Shown piece after piece: positions 40,962 through 45,415 of a stretch of DNA of 64,000 nucleotides. The position numbers and the translations under genes were made by a program. Each line of letters begins with the position of its first letter. Positions within the stretch are counted from its first letter, which is position 1. The DNA lies in the IMG/VR virus record IMGVR_UViG_2778261689_000001, positions 1 through 64,000 of that record. One strand, given 5' to 3'. The notes below the pieces were generated by a model. It did not search any database. It was not told where the DNA came from and saw nothing but the letters and a program-made list of their open reading frames with translations. This stretch comes from a virus. Taxonomy: Duplodnaviria > Heunggongvirae > Uroviricota > Caudoviricetes.

Positions 40962-41396
40962 TTACAGATAATCTTCCACACGAAGACCTAAACGACGGCC
41001 TACTTCTTCCAGTACTTTGTGTTCTGCTGGCTCGATTTCACCGTCCGCTTCTGCAATTGTCAGCATGTTAACGAATACTTCTTCCGCTTCTTTTGGATCG
41101 TTTTTGATATCTTCAATTTCGCGAAGGATATTCATGCGACCAACACGGAAGCCAGCTTCCAGTTGCTCGGTAAAGCGGGTAATTGTTGCAGTAATTTCGT
41201 TACCAAAATGACTAAGACGCGGATTAGAGCGGACAAGCTGATCAAGTTTCGCTGTTTCTTCTTTTTCGATTTCACCATCAGCGGCAGACACCAACAAACA
41301 GCCACCGATGATGGCCTCCATCAGATCGCGATTCTCAACTTTTTTCAGCTCTACTTTTGCAGAAGCGACTTTCTTGCCGAACAATTTACCGAACAT
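40962..41396 (-). CDS. TerB-like tellurite-resistance-family protein (TciA-like, 144 aa)
   Basis: Two TerB-type repeats (AADGEIEKEE...; AEADGEIEPAEHKVLEEV). Confidence 0.6.
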   Translation of the reverse strand: MFGKLFGKKVASAKVELKKVENRDLMEAIIGGCLLVSAADGEIEKEETAKLDQLVRSNPRLSHFGNEITATITRFTEQLEAGFRVGRMNILREIEDIKNDPKEAEEVFVNMLTIAEADGEIEPAEHKVLEEVGRRLGLRVEDYL

Positions 41397-41574
41397 TGGT
41401 TATCCCTCAATAAAAGTGACATATTTATTAGATTGCGGTGCCGAGTGCCTCCCGGTGACGTTAACCAGTTAACAATTAACGTCGGAATGTTTAACCATTA
41501 AGGAGGATTGTTTTAACTGTTCCGCGTGCGCTTAGCCGCATTCACCGCAACGGAAAGAGCATTCCTGGTGGACC

Positions 41575-42320
41575 TGTAGATTGGGATATGAACCCGTTAC
41601 AGGAGAATGCTCTTACCTGTTACGTGCTCCGTTTCGTGGAGCTAACGGCGGGTGATCGGGCCGCACCAGACTGGACTTATTTCAGCGTTATGCTCATGCC
41701 AGAGAATCAAACTGTGATGGTCGGTGCTGAACTCCGACACAGGGTTGTAGCAAGCCCCGCAAAGCGCGCACTACTGTAGTTGCGGCACATCAGCCTGTGC
41801 ATTCACCACAATGTTGAGAACACTGGTTGTCACGCTGCAACGCAACATTTATTCGTAGATTGGGATATGACCCCGTTACGCCAGTGTTCTCAACGTTGTA
41901 GTGCCGGTTACGGTTCCGGCCAGGCCTCTTCCTCAACGGGGTGTTCTCCATACGGACTACCGTTTATTGGTCGTTCCTGCGGTTTATGTTGTGAAGCCAG
42001 ATGCTTATCTTCTGGTTGCTTCAAAGAGCTGCACTTCATCACAACGGTAAGAGCACTCGATGCATTTAAGCCAAGCCCCATAAGGGAGAATGCCCTTACC
42101 TGTTGTGTTGTGATGACCGGTGCTGATCTCCGGCTTGCGGTTATTTCAGACTCTCACGGGCGTTTAATTGCCCCGCCGAACAGCTCTTTTCCGCAATAGC
42201 TGCAATGTCTTTCGCGCATCAGCCTGCGCATTCATCACAACGGTAAGGGTACTTCGTAGGGATTCGAACCCTCTGCCAAGCTCGGCGATCTCCGACGTCG
42301 CAAAATACCCTTACCTGTTG
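41575..42320. repeat. Cluster of related long hairpin/inverted-repeat elements, some with tRNA T-arm-like cores
   Basis: Direct repeats of GTAGATTGGGATATGA(A/C)CCCGTTAC at ~41575 and ~41858; 20-bp IR CACAATGTTGAGAACACTGG/CCAGTGTTCTCAACGTTGTAG; repeated CACAACGGTAAG...CCCTTACCTGTTGTG hairpins at ~42044-42120 and ~42233-42320; GGGATTCGAACCC core at ~42262. Confidence 0.6.
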
Positions 42321-42323
42321 TGC

Positions 42324-42399
42324 TGGTGCCGATTAACGGACTCGAACCGCTGACATCCTGCTTACAAGGCAGGCGCTCTACCAACTGAGCTAAACCGGC
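42324..42399 (-). tRNA. tRNA-Thr (anticodon UGU)
   Basis: rc GCCGGTTTAGCTCAGTTGGTAGAGCGCCTGCCTTGTAAGCAGGATGTCAGCGGTTCGAGTCCGTTAATCGGCACCA with anticodon loop CTTGTAA. Confidence 0.85.
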
Positions 42400-42401
42400 A
42401 T

Positions 42402-42477
42402 TGGCGATGGTGGATGGATTTGAACCATCGACCCGTTGATTAACAGTCAACCGCTCTAACCGCTGAGCTACACCATC
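42402..42477 (-). tRNA. tRNA-Asn (anticodon GUU)
   Basis: rc GATGGTGTAGCTCAGCGGTTAGAGCGGTTGACTGTTAATCAACGGGTCGATGGTTCAAATCCATCCACCATCGCCA with anticodon loop CTGTTAA. Confidence 0.8.
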
Positions 42478-43143
42478 ACTTGCCGGGTACGTCTCCGGCG
42501 AGGGCTTCCACCTCCGTATGCTTTTCGGCGCACCGCGCCCTGGCTGCAATTCGGTAACAGGGGATGCATAACCCTGGCTTCCAGCGTGATTAGCGCTTTC
42601 AGCATGACGGGATATACCCGTAAATTCGTGGAACTGTACCCAAAGTGCTGTTAAGCACCGCTGTTACGCTGAAAAGAAAACGCAACAGGAAAGGACGCTG
42701 ACCAACAGATGGCCCCTTCTCGTTCATCTGGTTAATCACACCAGCGCCCTTACCTGTTGTGTCTCCCCGTTCCCTAATACACAGACGGGGACACTCTGCG
42801 GTCGATTTTTTGACGGGGGACGACTCATACCCCGTGGCGTCTGGCTTCTTAGGCCGCTACCATCATCAGATCATCGTTTGCATTTACTTTAATGGTCAGT
42901 TTCTAAACCGCCGCAAAGTCGCTAACCATGACGAAAACCCTGAAAAAAAACGCCCACCCGAAGATGGGCAAACTGGAAGCTCGTAACGCACTTCGGAGTT
43001 GCCACTTAGGCGCATGGTCAACCTGGCAACTCGGTGGTTTGTCTGGGAGGACTAGGCCCAGCCATGCTTACCGCCGCGCCTGTCGCGGCTAACAGCTAAA
43101 TCGCTCTATAAATCACGATTCATTGAGGCTATATTACACTAAT

Positions 43144-43160
43144 AAATTTATTAGAGCAAT
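43144..43160 (-). promoter_or_regulatory. C1 operator (perfect consensus) upstream of the tRNA/tciA/ban operon
   Basis: AAATTTATTAGAGCAAT is the exact rc of ATTGCTCTAATAAATTT. Confidence 0.8.
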
Positions 43161-45415
43161 ATACCTAAAACGTCATGAGCTACACCTCGAGTGTCCCCCT
43201 TACAAGACACAGAACGTCTGGCAAAAAGAGGTTCCACTCTGAAGCCACTGTCATGATAAAGCTCTCTGATATTTGGCGCGCCACTGTTAGTAATGAGAAC
43301 CTTTGCACCTCGACGATGAGCATCCGTCAACAGAGACACCAGGCGTTTTTGCTCTTCAAACTTAAAGTCATGACCGGAATAGTTCGTGAATCCCTCTGTA
43401 TTTGGAAGCGGTTCATACGGCGGATCGCAAAAGATGACATCTCCTTCTCCGGCAGCTTCAATCACCGCTGCAAAATCACCGCATACAAACTCAGACCGCC
43501 CTTCCGCACCGAGGAAGGCTTCCATCTCCTGTAATGGGAAATACGGAGTTTTATACTTCCCATAACCGACATTGAACTCACCGGCCTGGTTGTAACGCGT
43601 CAATCCGTTAAAACAATGTCGGTTCAGGAACAAAAACGCCGCTGCGCGATGTAAATCATCATAGACTTGTTTGTTAAACGCATTCCGTACTGCCAGGTAT
43701 CCTTCCTGTGTGTTGTAGTCCTGGAAGAAACGATGTGCCAGAGTGATAAGTGAATGCGCCTCGCGTTGCAGAGTCTTGTAAAAGTTAATCAGGTCAGCAT
43801 TCACATCATTTAGCAGATTTTCCTGGTATCCGGCATTCATGAAGACAGCTCCGCCACCAACGAAAGGTTCAATCAGGCGCTTCCCTTCTGGCAAATAGCG
43901 AAAGATTTGTTCCAGAACACCAAATTTTCCACCAGCCCATTTGAATATGGACCGTTCGAATTCTGCCGCTGGTTTAACTTTTCGCTCTTTTGTTTTACTT
44001 CCTTCTTTCTGCCGACATACGGCCTTAGTAATCCGATCGCCAATCCAGCGCATTACTGGTATTGCCATACTATTGCCGATCGCTTTGTAACGCGGTCCGT
44101 CAGCTGCAAGCATCGCGGCCTCTTCTTCGCTTAAATCTGGATAGTGATTGCGAAGATATGCCAGTTCATCTGAATTAACTTTTTTACGCTTTTCCGTCGG
44201 GATCAACGTATGCCCATCAGGAAAACCTTGCAGCCTTTCACATTCGACAGGGGTAAGACGGCGGACAGCTACTTCTGCGTTTCTTACTTCATAGCAAACA
44301 GCTGTTGGATTTTTAGCCATTAGAGATGGTGAAGTATTCTTAGTTGCAGCATGTTGTGTACCGCTCATACGCTCAGGAAAAGCCAATGTAACAAGATGCT
44401 CATGGCTTTCTTGCTCACGTGCCCGCAATGTACCATGCCCTTCTGACCAAAAACCTGCTCCTGTGCTGCTAAAAACGGCAAGGTCAGTGGCATCTTTAAA
44501 ATCTCTTGCCTTTACTGTCGATGCGGTTTCATCGTCAATATATTCCCCAAATGCTGCCATCCTGAAAGCGTTTACGGCTTTCGTCGATTTCATACCGGGT
44601 GGAATGTCAGCGTGTAGGCATGGATTTAGGCTTTCGCCACTGATTGCAGCGCCATTTGCAATAATGGCGGAAGCGATTTCCTTCTTTTTTCGGCTCGGCG
44701 CAATATCCCGGCGCACGCCTTCGAACTCAAAAAGTACCGTTGCGGGATCGAGGTCTGTTCGAGCACTTGCGACAACAAACACGCGTCGGCGTCGTTGTGC
44801 CACTCCGAAGTATTGGGCATCAAGGATTCTCCAGGCCACCTTTCGCTGCGGTCCATAAATACAACCACACTGCGGCCACTTTGGAGCATGGCAACCGGTT
44901 TTGCCATCCCACCGCCAGAACGCGTTACTTTTTCCTGATTCAGGTCGATCACCTGGTTCAAATGGCGCATCTTCTCCAGCCAATCCGGCAAGGAAACATC
45001 CGAAGGCGTTATCTGCCGATGACAGGACTCCTGGGACATTTTCCCAGACGATAACTGTCGGTTTGAGGAAGGACTCAGACCGTTTGTCGTCAATTGCATT
45101 TGCAAGCTCCACATACTTCAAAGTTAGCGCGCCGCGTTCATCATCAAGCCCACCACGTAAGCCCGCGATACTGAATGCCTGACAAGGTGTTCCCCCGACG
45201 AGCACATCAGGGGATTCGATTTCCCCAGCCAGGACTTTTTTGGCAAGTTTTGTCATGTCGCCAAGGTTGGCGACATGGGGCCAGCGGTGCGCAAGAACGG
45301 CAGATGGAAAAGGCTCGATTTCAGCAAACCACGCCGGACGCATACCCAACGGTTCCCAGGCAATACTCGCGGCTTCAATTCCACTGCAAACAGATCCATA
45401 GCACAGCTCTTTCAC
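43151..45415 (-). CDS. dmt: Bifunctional DNA methyltransferase (N-terminal C5-cytosine MTase domain, C-terminal Dam-like N6-adenine MTase domain; 754 aa)
   Basis: N-terminal [14 protein letters not shown] (motif I) and [11 protein letters not shown] (PC motif); C-terminal FKWAGGK and DPPY motifs. Confidence 0.85.

What the first reader, a model, noticed from the sequence alone, without database searches (positions are those of the whole stretch)
41575..42320. Family of long hairpin repeats, some with tRNA T-arm-like cores, interleaved with the tRNA genes
Upstream of tRNA-Thr/Asn and downstream of the operator at 43144-43160 there are at least four related elements: 16-20 bp inverted repeats enclosing ~40-60 nt loops, two direct copies of a ~25-nt motif, and a GGGATTCGAACCC core. 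A further CCCTTACCTGTTGTG copy lies at ~42748. They could be decayed tRNA genes, processing signals or regulatory RNA structures in the ban operon leader.
Basis: seen in the sequence. Interest (0 to 1): 0.45.

Follow-up and report, generated by a model that had tools for sequence, protein, structure and literature searches.

The report
Processing-hairpin and small-RNA array, P1 ban leader
The repeats are real: the untranslated leader of phage P1's ban operon is a string of conserved long RNA hairpins, most followed by an STnc100-like small-RNA domain and interleaved with tRNA genes, most likely RNase III processing signals rather than decayed tRNAs or the annotated "upl/plp" proteins.

Summary
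The window is a P1-like phage-plasmid, and the region is the minus-strand leader of the C1-controlled ban operon. It holds five related long hairpins ("H", 19-25 bp stems with variable 34-54 nt loops). Four of them are each followed by a multi-helix domain ("S") that shares its closing helix and last hairpin with the prophage sRNA STnc100/PasD.

Over 45 distinct homologues the H stem is 95% paired. Twelve of its 20 pairs show compensatory changes, and G·U outnumbers A·C 74 to 14, so this is an RNA structure on the ban-sense strand. All 228 neighbouring tRNAs are co-oriented, and H often starts 0-2 nt after a tRNA CCA end.

The same modules sit in early-left and late operon leaders of lambdoid phages. 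In E. coli K-12 Qin they flank dicF, where published RNase III-dependent DicF ends map, by my coordinates, into the H stem and the S closing helix.

The plus-strand ORFs upl and plp are not conserved and are probably spurious. "Decayed tRNA" is not supported for the hairpins, although T-arm-like hairpins are about 125-fold enriched in H loops, which remains unexplained. Most likely this is a polycistronic tRNA/sRNA precursor punctuated by RNase III sites.

The parts
43133..43160 (.). Oban (Op72) bivalent C1 operator overlapping the ban promoter. Context: start of the minus-strand transcription unit.
   Evidence: Perfectly adjacent 14-nt palindrome arms (I9). Corresponds to P1 Obanab/P1ban in NC_005856.
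42951..42973 (-). Intrinsic-terminator-like hairpin plus U8, about 180 nt downstream of the promoter, inside P1's annotated 'dicF-like region'.
   Evidence: scan_promoters_terminators. A near-identical terminator follows an H-S unit in locus L082.
42679..42763 (-). Hairpin E, the fifth and most divergent H element.
   Evidence: R1 24.8 bits, E=0.0043 on the minus strand against 19.1 bits on the plus strand.
42402..42477 (-). tRNA-Asn (GUU)
   Evidence: ARAGORN; Rfam tRNA 74.5 bits.
42324..42399 (-). tRNA-Thr (UGU). Its CCA end is 1 nt from hairpin A.
   Evidence: ARAGORN; Rfam tRNA 72.9 bits; sequence.
42236..42322 (-). Hairpin A: a stem of about 24 bp. The loop contains the T-arm-like AGGG-UUCGAAU-CCCU.
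   Evidence: R1 71.7 bits; fold -51.3 kcal/mol, z -4.23; T-arm scan.
42110..42238 (-). S1 domain: GUGAUGAAU, hairpin GCGCAGGCUGAUGCGC, a variable core, hairpin GCCGG-AGAUCAGCA-CCGGU, then CAUCAC. It is 98% identical to a segment in lambdoid phages (mEp460, IME207, 1720a-02).
   Evidence: Not recognised by Rfam STnc100.
42040..42107 (-). Hairpin B. Absent, together with S1, from the P1 reference, which carries an A/B fusion.
   Evidence: R1 61.4 bits; fold z -3.67; alignment.
41991..42042 (-). S_B, a minimal 52-nt S domain (GUGAUGAAG ... CCAGA-AGAUAAGCA-UCUGG-CUUCAC).
   Evidence: The same mini domain precedes a tRNA-Ser in 13+ IMG/VR loci.
41904..41990 (-). Spacer x1. It shares CCCCGUUGAGGA with the segment between the Qin hairpin and dicF. 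It ends in CCGUAACCGGCAC, which resembles a tRNA-Thr 3' end without CCA.
   Evidence: Sequence comparison. No significant tRNA hit.
41804..41903 (-). Hairpin C, with a compensated stem variant (GUUGAGAACACUGG / CCAGUGUUCUCAAC). The loop carries the 25-nt motif GUAACGGGGUCAUAUCCCAAUCUAC.
   Evidence: R1 65.2 bits; fold -55.6 kcal/mol, z -5.15; I1 and D6.
41714..41809 (-). S2 domain (GUGGUGAAU ... GUCGG-AGUUCAGCA-CCGAC-CAUCAC).
   Evidence: Replaced by another S variant in P7 and D6.
41627..41713 (-). Spacer x2, the position where P7, D6 and many IMG/VR relatives carry an 87-nt tRNA-Ser(UGA).
   Evidence: Alignment; ARAGORN on loci.
41546..41624 (-). Hairpin D. The loop carries the second copy of the 25-nt motif, followed by UCCACCA.
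   Evidence: R1 66.0 bits; fold z -3.45.
41435..41548 (-). S3 domain, an STnc100-like core, ending 38 nt before the tciA start codon.
   Evidence: Rfam RF02076 42 bits (gathering score 47), E=6e-7, model positions 31-147. About 80% identical copies in 4528 of 5426 E. coli genomes.
41588..42199 (+). ORFs annotated in P1 as upl (41588-41779) and plp (41780-42199, TTG start), antisense to the RNA array. Probably not genes.
   Evidence: No Pfam family. Intact only in relatives at least 97% identical, truncated or stop-containing otherwise. Not annotated in P7. Non-essential by CRISPRi (PMC10695390).

Best explanation
The about 1.35-kb stretch between the ban promoter-proximal terminator and tciA is a non-coding, highly structured polycistronic RNA leader read from the minus strand.

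It is built from repeated units. Each unit has a long hairpin H (a conserved 19-25 bp stem with a hypervariable loop). In units A-D this is followed by an S domain, a multi-helix junction of the STnc100/PasD prophage-sRNA type. After hairpin E only an S-like terminal hairpin is recognisable. tRNA genes are slotted between units.

The H stems, and the closing helices of the S domains, most likely act as double-stranded RNase III entry sites. These would cut the precursor into pieces. That would free the 3' trailers of the tRNAs, which H abuts within 0-2 nt. It would release or stabilise the S-type and loop RNAs, and it would separate the untranslated array from the downstream tciABC-trnI-ban message.

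Shown here: the helices exist, are under selection as RNA on this strand, and form a family shared with lambdoid and Qin/Rac prophages.

Inferred: cleavage by RNase III. This rests on homology to the Qin dicBF operon, where RNase III-dependent ends of DicF species fall in the homologous helices. What the released pieces do is also inferred.
For: 1. Identity and strand. The window is P1-like, 97-100% identical to P1, RCS47 and JL22 here. P1 annotation places Oban/P1ban upstream and trnA, trnT, tciABC, trnI and ban on this strand.

2. Structure. Four hairpins have z-scores of -3.5 to -5.2, and all four are recovered in the MFE fold of the whole 927-nt leader.

3. Covariation. Over 45 distinct arm pairs, 95.3% of cells are paired against 86.1% in shuffles. 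Twelve of 20 pairs change on both sides, 0 of 500 shuffles reach the observed values, and slid registers pair at only 35-48%.

4. Strand of the RNA. G·U 74 against A·C 14. R1 scores 61-72 bits on the minus strand against 18-30 on the plus strand.

5. Linkage to tRNAs. 89 of 107 loci have tRNAs within 2.5 kb, and 228 of 228 are co-oriented. 81 of 234 H copies start within a few nt of a tRNA-Thr, -Asn or -Ser 3' end.

6. Context elsewhere. H-S units lie in early-left leaders after cI-like repressors and in late leaders after Q antiterminator genes. In the late leaders examined (L044, L073, L088) a terminator follows the unit.

7. S domains. Twenty variants, including canonical STnc100, share P1 GYGRUG/CAYCRC, the AAU junction, and a 5-bp last hairpin whose loop ends (A)GCA. 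Both helices show covariation.

8. Link to RNase III. In K-12 Qin an H hairpin (R1 24.5 bits, E=2e-4) lies at L155 1674-1758, dicF at 1883-1935, and an S domain with a closing helix of about 17 bp follows. The literature reports an RNase III-dependent 5' end of a 190-nt DicF species (bioRxiv 10.1101/2023.04.14.536235) and an RNase III-made 3' end of a 72-nt DicF (PMC5069750). These map to L155 1746, inside the H 3' arm, and to L155 1954, inside the S closing helix. Gordon et al. 2017 Table S1 also lists an RNase III site in the dicF-dicB spacer.

9. Same order in a Rac-like prophage: H at 34.3 bits, DicF at 76.7 bits, an STnc100-like domain at 39 bits, then kil.
Against: - No cleavage data exist for P1 itself. 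The RNase III link rests on my mapping of gel-sized species (190 and 72 nt, a few nt uncertain) onto a Qin hairpin that scores only 24.5 bits with the model.
- E. coli RNase III specificity cannot be predicted from sequence with these tools.
- If the stems were only cleavage sites, the strong conservation of stem sequence (not merely of pairing) would be unexpected. So would the conserved loop motifs (GGGKUCAUAUCCC-AAUC in C, D, mEp460 and L044) and the enrichment of T-arm-like hairpins.
- Stem sequence conservation could partly reflect gene conversion between copies. Recombinant deletions between copies are seen.
- S1 and S2 are not detected by the Rfam STnc100 model even at E<=10. Their assignment to that family rests on shared end architecture.
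- The covariation sample was partly ascertained with a pattern that fixes 12 nt of the 3' arm.
Confidence: 0.6

Rival explanations
1. The hairpins are decayed or truncated tRNA genes, or functional tRNA mimics. In this reading a long 'acceptor-like' stem carries a T-arm, so that tRNA-handling factors (RNase P, TruB/TrmA, CCA-adding enzyme, or tRNA-targeting defence nucleases) recognise them as substrates or decoys.
For: - Element A has a canonical T-arm-like hairpin one nucleotide from the 3' strand of the long stem.
- T-arm-like hairpins (stem >=4 bp, loop UUCRANY) occur at 3.9 per kb in H loops against 0.03 per kb in the rest of the loci. They appear in at least four unrelated loop types (A; L073; L085/L112; L009/L017/L063).
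- Loop D ends UCCACCA, and spacer x1 ends like a tRNA-Thr 3' end.
- H elements sit directly next to tRNAs.
- From my own knowledge, not tested here: P1's C4 RNA precursor is an RNase P substrate.
Against: - ARAGORN and the Rfam tRNA model find nothing beyond the three real tRNAs.
- The best tRNA-like scores on A are 14.6-14.9 bits with E>5. The YrlA model hits only the true tRNAs.
- Most loop types (B, E and more than 12 others) have no T-arm.
- The T-arm position within the loop is not fixed. It is next to the 3' arm in A and L073 but next to the 5' arm in L112.
- The C/D loop UUCAUAU lacks the A58 equivalent.
- The conserved part of the family is the stem, not the loop.
Confidence: 0.15
2. 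The units are cis-acting transcription-elongation elements: nut-like or boxA-like antitermination sites, or simply Rho-proof structure. They would let RNA polymerase cross a long untranslated leader and downstream terminators.
For: - The 3' arm consensus UGCUCUUAC(C) / UGCUCUUUC(C) in B and D equals the boxA consensus (lambda nutR CGCUCUUAC, rrn UGCUCUUUAACA; from my own knowledge). It is followed about 13 nt later by a 5-bp hairpin.
- In lambdoid phages the units sit where nutL would be, and in the late leaders examined (L044, L073, L088) they lie next to terminators. The first early-left genes checked show no recognisable N.
- The ban leader is more than 1.3 kb untranslated and begins with a strong terminator.
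Against: - The boxA-like segment is base-paired in a 20-bp helix, and its complement co-varies with it. NusB/E needs single-stranded RNA.
- Elements A, C and E lack the boxA consensus.
- The units lie downstream of the leader terminator, so they cannot act on it.
- The following hairpin differs between S types.
- The HK022 put region gives no hit with R1.
Confidence: 0.1
3. The repeats act at the DNA level. They would be imperfect palindromes serving as recombination or insertion sites (cassette boundaries, MITE-like selfish elements) that shuffle tRNA and sRNA cargo between phages.
For: - Structural variants among P1-like phages have end points in the repeats. P1 reference carries an A/B fusion that removes 215 bp, and SJ46 carries a C-loop/D-loop fusion.
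- Loops and the tRNA complement are highly variable between otherwise near-identical phages.
- The family is spread over unrelated phage types.
Against: - The G·U over A·C excess (74 to 14) and the 30-45 bit strand asymmetry of the covariance model indicate selection on one RNA strand, not on a DNA cruciform.
- The elements are always co-oriented with tRNAs and with the flanking operon.
- No associated recombinase was seen next to the units.
- The observed deletions are what ordinary homologous recombination between repeats would give.
Confidence: 0.07
4. The region encodes the small proteins Upl (63 aa) and Plp (139 aa here, 'putative lipoprotein') on the plus strand, as annotated in P1. The repeats would then be repeats within coding sequence.
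For: The ORFs are open in the window, are annotated in NC_005856 and RCS47, and are intact in 30-40 near-identical relatives.
Against: - No Pfam family.
- plp starts with TTG and in P1 overlaps trnT.
- The ORFs are truncated, frame-broken or stop-containing in every relative below about 97% identity. They are absent from the P7 annotation.
- The unit-sized indels change Plp length and C-terminus.
- The conservation pattern follows RNA pairing on the opposite strand.
- CRISPRi scores both as non-essential.
Confidence: 0.03

Closest known systems
[quoted passage not shown]
   Same: It is also a repressor-controlled early operon of a temperate phage with an untranslated stretch. That stretch holds an H-family hairpin, an sRNA and an STnc100-like S domain before the first downstream protein gene. 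R1 hits at L155 1674-1758 and L154 2909-2818, and DicF and STnc100-like hits follow in the same order. Spacer x1 shares CCCCGUUGAGGA with it. Published RNase III-dependent ends fall in the homologous helices.
   Different: Qin has one H and one S unit and no tRNAs. P1 has five H elements, four of them followed by S domains, interleaved with two tRNAs (three or four in relatives). The window gives no significant Rfam DicF hit. P1's 'dicF-like region' lies upstream of the array.
STnc100 (Rfam RF02076) / PasD prophage sRNAs
   Same: S3 aligns to model positions 31-147 at 42 bits. All S domains share the GGUGAAU 5' strand, the CCGGGAGGCACCCGG-type last hairpin and the CACC closing strand. Both are prophage-borne and found downstream of Q or next to terB-like genes.
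   Different: Canonical STnc100 is a free-standing, Hfq-associated sRNA with its own 5' leader and rho-independent terminator (206-nt model, 207.7 bits in phage PA2). It has no H hairpin. The P1 copies lack the terminator, are chained, score below the gathering threshold (S3) or not at all (S1, S2), and have unrelated cores.
RNase III processing hairpins of phage and rRNA polycistronic transcripts (T7 early mRNA sites R0.3-R1.3; rrn processing stalks)
   Same: Several stems of about 20 bp or more are placed between functional RNAs in one transcript of a phage early operon. The stems directly flank structured RNAs. (The T7 and rrn comparison is from my own knowledge.)
   Different: Those sites separate mRNAs or rRNAs and have small loops or enclose the mature RNA. 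Here the loops are 34-100 nt, hypervariable and sometimes T-arm-like, and the stem sequence itself is conserved across phage families.
tRNA-like RNAs with extended stems (bacterial Y RNA YrlA, mascRNA, P1 C4 precursor)
   Same: Element A and several relatives combine a long terminal helix with a T-arm-like hairpin.
   Different: There is no D-arm or anticodon-arm equivalent and no significant match to the YrlA, tRNA or mascRNA models. The T-arm is absent from most family members.
lambda nut sites / rrn boxA
   Same: Position in the early-left leader, and a boxA-like octamer followed by a short hairpin in elements B and D.
   Different: The octamer is sequestered in a conserved helix, is missing from A, C and E, and no N-like gene was seen among the downstream genes checked.

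Membership tests
tRNA gene / tRNA pseudogene | Cloverleaf detectable by ARAGORN or the Rfam tRNA covariance model (RF00005, gathering score 29 bits) | tested here: not met
   Only Asn, Thr and Met/Ile2 are found in the window. On element A the best clan hit is tRNA-Sec at 14.6 bits, E=7.6.
tRNA gene / tRNA pseudogene | T-arm: a 4-5 bp stem with a UUCRANY loop | tested here: inconclusive
   Present in element A and in 11 of 55 distinct H loops of the family, an enrichment of about 125-fold. Degenerate in C and D, absent in B and E.
STnc100 (RF02076) | Score at or above the Rfam gathering threshold (47 bits) | tested here: not met
   S3 scores 42 bits, E=6e-7, covering model positions 31-147 only. 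S1 and S2 give no hit at E<=10.
STnc100 (RF02076) | Core architecture: closing helix GGUG/CACC, AAU junction, terminal 5-bp hairpin adjacent to the 3' closing strand | tested here: met
   Shared by 20 S variants, including window S1, S2, S3 and S_B and canonical STnc100, with covariation in both helices.
STnc100 (RF02076) | Own rho-independent terminator (model positions about 170-206) making a discrete sRNA | tested here: not met
   No terminator after any S domain in the window. A terminator is present after H-S units in several lambdoid loci.
DicF (RF00039) | Match to the DicF covariance model (gathering score 48 bits) | tested here: not met
   No DicF hit at E<=1 in window 40000-44000, against 76.7 bits in the Rac-like locus L154.
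RNase III processing site | Continuous or near-continuous dsRNA of about two helical turns (>=20 bp) | tested here: met
   19-25 bp stems with one bulged A.
RNase III processing site | rnc-dependent cleavage within the helix | not testable with these tools
   Only indirect evidence. Published RNase III-dependent 190-nt and 72-nt DicF ends map into the homologous Qin helices by my coordinates. An RNase III site is also listed in the dicF-dicB spacer.
Bacterial Y RNA (YrlA, RF02553) | Match to the YrlA model: a tRNA-like module plus a Ro-binding stem | tested here: not met
   The only YrlA hit (25.6 bits against a gathering score of 69) lies on the true tRNA pair, not on any hairpin.
lambda-type nut site | Single-stranded boxA (YGCUCUUWA) followed by a boxB hairpin, with an N-type protein encoded downstream | tested here: inconclusive
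   A boxA-like octamer is present in B and D only and is paired in the stem. No N-like family was found among the first downstream genes of the lambdoid loci checked.
HK022 put antiterminator RNA | Sequence or structure similarity to putL/putR | tested here: not met
   R1 finds nothing in the HK022 nun-cI-cro region. A put model as such was not available.
Protein-coding genes upl / plp | ORF conserved across diverged relatives, or membership in a protein family | tested here: not met
   No Pfam match. ORFs are intact only at >=97% identity and otherwise truncated or interrupted.

The most novel reading that the evidence does not exclude
The H and S elements may be a general scaffold-and-payload system of enterobacterial temperate phages. 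Conserved helices would act as RNase III-cut frames, and their hypervariable interiors (loops of 34-100 nt, some built from one or two T-arm mimics, and S cores) would be the functional cargo. On this reading P1's ban leader is a polycistronic precursor, analogous to a microRNA cluster. On prophage induction it would release a set of small RNAs or tRNA-elbow decoys that target host factors. Candidates are Hfq-dependent mRNA targets, tRNA-modifying or processing enzymes, and tRNA-directed defence nucleases. The accompanying phage tRNAs (Asn, Thr, Tyr, Ser, Arg, Ile) might also counter those nucleases.
Probability: 0.15. Interest if true: 0.7.

Novelty: new variant of a known kind. Interest (0 to 1): 0.5.

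Why it matters
It re-reads about 1.3 kb of one of the best-known phage genomes. The two P1 'genes' upl and plp are probably annotation artefacts lying antisense to a conserved structured RNA array.

It also links three things that are catalogued separately: the P1 tRNA region, the DicF locus of Qin and Rac, and the STnc100/PasD prophage sRNAs. All three appear to be built from one modular RNA architecture. The long-hairpin module has no Rfam family (no family reached its gathering score on 14 H-S loci or on the window region).

The S-type module has similar copies in 4528 of 5426 complete E. coli genomes. A defined processing scaffold would therefore help annotate prophage non-coding RNA and explain how phage tRNAs and sRNAs are matured from operon leaders. 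It would also supply testable RNase III substrates.

The unexplained enrichment of T-arm mimics inside the hairpins is a concrete lead for phage-host RNA biology.

Tried and rejected
- Rfam scans. Nothing reaches a gathering score on the hairpins. The miRNA-precursor hits (mir-142, mir-5985, mir-465) only reflect long hairpins.
- HK022 put. I fetched the nun-cI region. R1 gives no hit and there is no similarity, so I dropped it.
- Integron attC, box C/D k-turn and ERIC readings were considered from the sequence alone. They were rejected because the R/Y core motifs do not fit. GUGAUGA also co-varies with its partner as a plain helix (GUGGUG/CACCAC), and the G·U bias points to RNA.
- The genome-contig scan with the junction pattern gave 38 hits, close to the roughly 35 I estimated by chance. 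Only one (an Escherichia sp. P1-like contig) is real. It therefore gave no taxonomic breadth beyond Enterobacteriaceae phages.
- BLAST of loops and spacers against the phage tRNAs returned only the shared T-loop 12-mer and 7-9-mers.
- Lobocka 2004 and Faubladier & Bouché 1994 are not held. A literature search for P1 transcriptome data found nothing useful.
- The supplement of Altuvia 2018 is not held.
- My first automatic S-domain boundary finder was too permissive. I replaced it with hand-checked ends.
- MAFFT put the last hairpin of the two S types in different registers, so I tallied those pairs with a script instead of the pair-count tool.
Full report
**What the window is.** The 1.76 kb around the finding is 97-100% identical to phage P1 and P1-like phage-plasmids such as RCS47, JL22, P7, D6 and SJ46. 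In the P1 reference the bivalent C1 operator Oban and the ban promoter lie at the position of window 43133-43160. The operon runs on the window's minus strand through trnA (Asn), trnT (Thr), tciA, tciB, tciC, trnI and ban. The finding lies between trnT and tciA. P1 annotates this stretch only as two plus-strand ORFs: upl, and plp ("putative lipoprotein", overlapping trnT in P1), plus a "dicF-like region" further upstream.

**Observation check.** All the reported features are there.
- Folded as minus-strand RNA, four elements form stems of 19-25 bp with one bulged A and loops of 34-54 nt. Their energies are 3.5-5.2 SD below dinucleotide shuffles.
- I built a covariance model (R1) from 25 diverse homologues found elsewhere. 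In the window it scores A at 71.7, D at 66.0, C at 65.2 and B at 61.4 bits.
- R1 also finds a fifth element E at 42763-42679 (24.8 bits, E=0.004).
- The plus strand scores 18-30 bits at the same places, and nothing else in the 64 kb matches.
- The two 25-nt direct copies are the loop motifs of C and D.
- GGGATTCGAACCC is a canonical T-arm-like hairpin in loop A only.

**Anatomy.** Read 5'→3' on the minus strand, the order is:
- promoter/operator
- a strong intrinsic terminator at 42973-42951
- hairpin E and a structured segment
- tRNA-Asn, then tRNA-Thr
- H_A and S1
- H_B and S_B
- spacer x1
- H_C and S2
- spacer x2
- H_D and S3
- 38 nt, then the tciA start

Each S domain begins with GYGRUGAAU, which overlaps the last 3 nt of the H stem. 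It continues with a short hairpin and a variable core. It ends with a 5-bp hairpin whose loop ends (A)GCA, followed at once by the closing strand CAYCRC. This end architecture is shared by 20 different S variants, including canonical STnc100 from an Stx2 phage, and both helices show compensatory changes. Rfam recognises only S3, at 42 bits against a gathering score of 47. It does not recognise S1 or S2.

**Family and covariation.** An exact scan of IMG/VR for the H/S junction (CTTACCGTTGTGRTGAAT) returned 101 stretches.
- These loci hold about 50 distinct stem pairs and dozens of unrelated loops.
- On 45 distinct arm pairs the proposed 20-bp helix is 95.3% paired. Twelve pairs change on both sides and the covariation score is 0.356 against 0.178 in shuffles. 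None of 500 shuffles reaches the observed values, and slid registers give 35-48% pairing.
- G·U pairs outnumber A·C 74 to 14. Together with the strand asymmetry of R1, this assigns the structure to RNA of the ban-sense strand.
- One caveat applies. The search pattern fixes 12 nt of the 3' arm, so part of the sample is ascertained. The C-, D-, Qin- and mEp460-type stems were found independently of that pattern, and they carry most of the compensatory changes.
- R1 finds 211 hits at E<=0.001 in 80 IMG/VR loci.

**Context.**
- Of 107 loci, 89 have tRNAs within 2.5 kb. All 228 of these tRNAs are on the same strand as H.
- 81 of 234 H copies begin within a few nucleotides of the CCA end of tRNA-Thr, -Asn or -Ser. 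Another 54 follow an S closing strand.
- P1-like relatives differ by whole modules. The P1 reference lacks S1 and B through an A/B fusion. SJ46 fuses the C and D loops. P7 and D6 carry another S variant plus an 87-nt tRNA-Ser in place of x2. Others add tRNA-Tyr or tRNA-Arg.
- In lambdoid phages the units lie in two places. One is the early-left leader just after the cI-like repressor gene, where the first downstream genes I checked show no recognisable N. The other is the late leader just after a Q antiterminator gene. In the late leaders examined (L044, L073, L088) a terminator follows the unit, and in L044 and L088 another immediately precedes it.

**Link to DicF and RNase III.**
- A megablast of the region against 5,426 complete E. 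coli genomes hit 4,528 of them. Most hits are to S3 at about 80% identity, in chromosomal Qin/Rac-type prophages next to dicB or kil.
- In a Rac-like prophage the order is H (R1 34.3 bits), DicF (Rfam 76.7 bits), an STnc100-like domain (39 bits), then kil.
- In K-12 Qin, H is at L155 1674-1758 (24.5 bits, E=2e-4) and dicF at 1883-1935. An S domain with a closing helix of about 17 bp follows, then dicB.
- Published work shows that RNase III creates the 5' end of a 190-nt DicF species and the 3' end of a 72-nt DicF.
- Counting from the annotated dicF ends, these fall at L155 1746, inside the 3' arm of the H stem, and at L155 1954, inside the S closing helix.
- A transcriptome study also lists an RNase III site in the dicF-dicB spacer, a known site supported by only 26 reads.
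- This mapping is my inference from fragment sizes. It is the only experimental anchor, and it fits the "processing signal" reading.

**Coding alternative.** Upl and Plp have no Pfam family. tblastn over the collected loci shows full-length, stop-free copies only in relatives at least 97% identical. More distant relatives have fragments or stops. Module-sized indels change Plp, and P7 does not annotate either ORF. CRISPRi scored both as non-essential. I regard them as antisense artefacts of a structured RNA region.

**tRNA alternative.** No tRNA model matches the hairpins. Even so, T-arm-like hairpins are about 125 times more frequent in H loops than in the surrounding DNA and occur in at least four unrelated loop types, two of them with two T-arms. 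The C/D loop motif (a stem, AC, a 3-bp hairpin with a YUCAUAW loop, AAUC, a stem) recurs with compensatory changes in mEp460 and L044. These loop features are not explained by a pure cleavage-site model and are recorded as unexplained.

**Other readings.**
- A boxA/nut-like role is suggested by the UGCUCUUAC/UGCUCUUUC 3' arms and by the nutL-like position. But the octamer is paired, it is absent from three of the five elements, and the units lie downstream of the leader terminator.
- HK022 put shows no relation.
- A DNA-level recombination role is contradicted by the strand-specific signals, although the repeats clearly do drive homologous deletions.

**Verdict.** The finding is real. It is a modular, conserved non-coding RNA array in the ban leader made of a long-hairpin family with no Rfam match, STnc100/PasD-type domains and tRNAs. 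Most likely (about 0.6) it works as a polycistronic precursor cut at the helices by RNase III. What the released pieces and the T-arm-like loops do is open. It is a new variant of a known kind (phage polycistronic RNA processing and prophage sRNA loci), of moderate interest.

Noticed in passing
window 42951-42973 (minus strand): A strong intrinsic terminator (8-bp GC-rich stem plus U8) lies only about 180 nt downstream of the C1-controlled ban promoter, inside P1's 'dicF-like region'. Transcription of the tRNAs, tciABC and ban must therefore read through it or start elsewhere. A near-identical terminator follows an H-S unit in IMG/VR locus L082 (3880-3899).
   Followed up: partly
window 41435-41548; L155 1953-2086; L154 2459-2644: The STnc100-like S3 domain directly upstream of tciA (TerB family) has copies about 80% identical in 4528 of 5426 complete E. 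coli genomes. These are mostly in Qin/Rac-type prophages between dicF and dicB or kil, where PGAP sometimes annotates a partial 'DicB' pseudogene over it.
   Followed up: partly
L006 1760-1846, L005 1765-1851, L010 2226-2310 and many IMG/VR loci: An 87-nt tRNA-Ser(UGA) in P7, D6 and relatives scores better against the Rfam tRNA-Sec model (43-47 bits, at or just under the gathering score) than as an ordinary tRNA. The D6 record notes that tRNAscan-SE would not call its amino acid. It is an unusual phage tRNA, and the window lacks it.
   Followed up: no
window 40612-40687 (minus strand): ARAGORN calls this tRNA-Met(CAU), whereas P1 annotates it as trnI (tRNA-Ile2, presumably lysidine-modified). 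This is the usual CAU ambiguity.
   Followed up: no
L004 (phage Ro157c2YLVW), about 160 nt inserted between spacer x1 and hairpin C: One P1-like phage has an extra insert of about 160 nt, annotated as a 42-aa hypothetical protein, exactly at the x1/H_C junction. It also has a 13-nt deletion in loop D that removes the T-arm-like hairpin. This shows that the loop motif is dispensable in at least one natural isolate.
   Followed up: no
L088 8132-8159 and 8390-8406; L044 3488-3515 and 3840-3857: In lambdoid late leaders the H-S unit is bracketed by two intrinsic terminators. The first is presumably tR' after the Q-modified promoter. The unit would therefore be transcribed only under Q antitermination and would end as a discrete RNA.
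   Followed up: partly
L070 8733-9166; L029 3780-4106: In Klebsiella/Salmonella IME207-type phages an H-S unit sits between genes of the opposite orientation in the structural module. In L070 it is followed by tRNA-Ile(AAU) and a terminator. It looks like a free-standing ncRNA transcription unit.
   Followed up: no
window 41562-41607 (loop D) and 42697-42746 (loop E): Loop D contains ...UACAGG-U-CCA-CCA directly after a short helix that encloses the T-arm-like hairpin, giving a minihelix-like arrangement with a CCACCA tail. Loop E contains AGGGGCCA, identical to the 3' end of the phage tRNA-Met/Ile. Both are short matches of uncertain meaning.
   Followed up: partly
window 43151-45415 (minus strand): The 754-aa dmt methyltransferase ORF, as listed, starts with GTG inside the Oban operator region and overlaps the divergent ban promoter, as in P1.
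   Followed up: no
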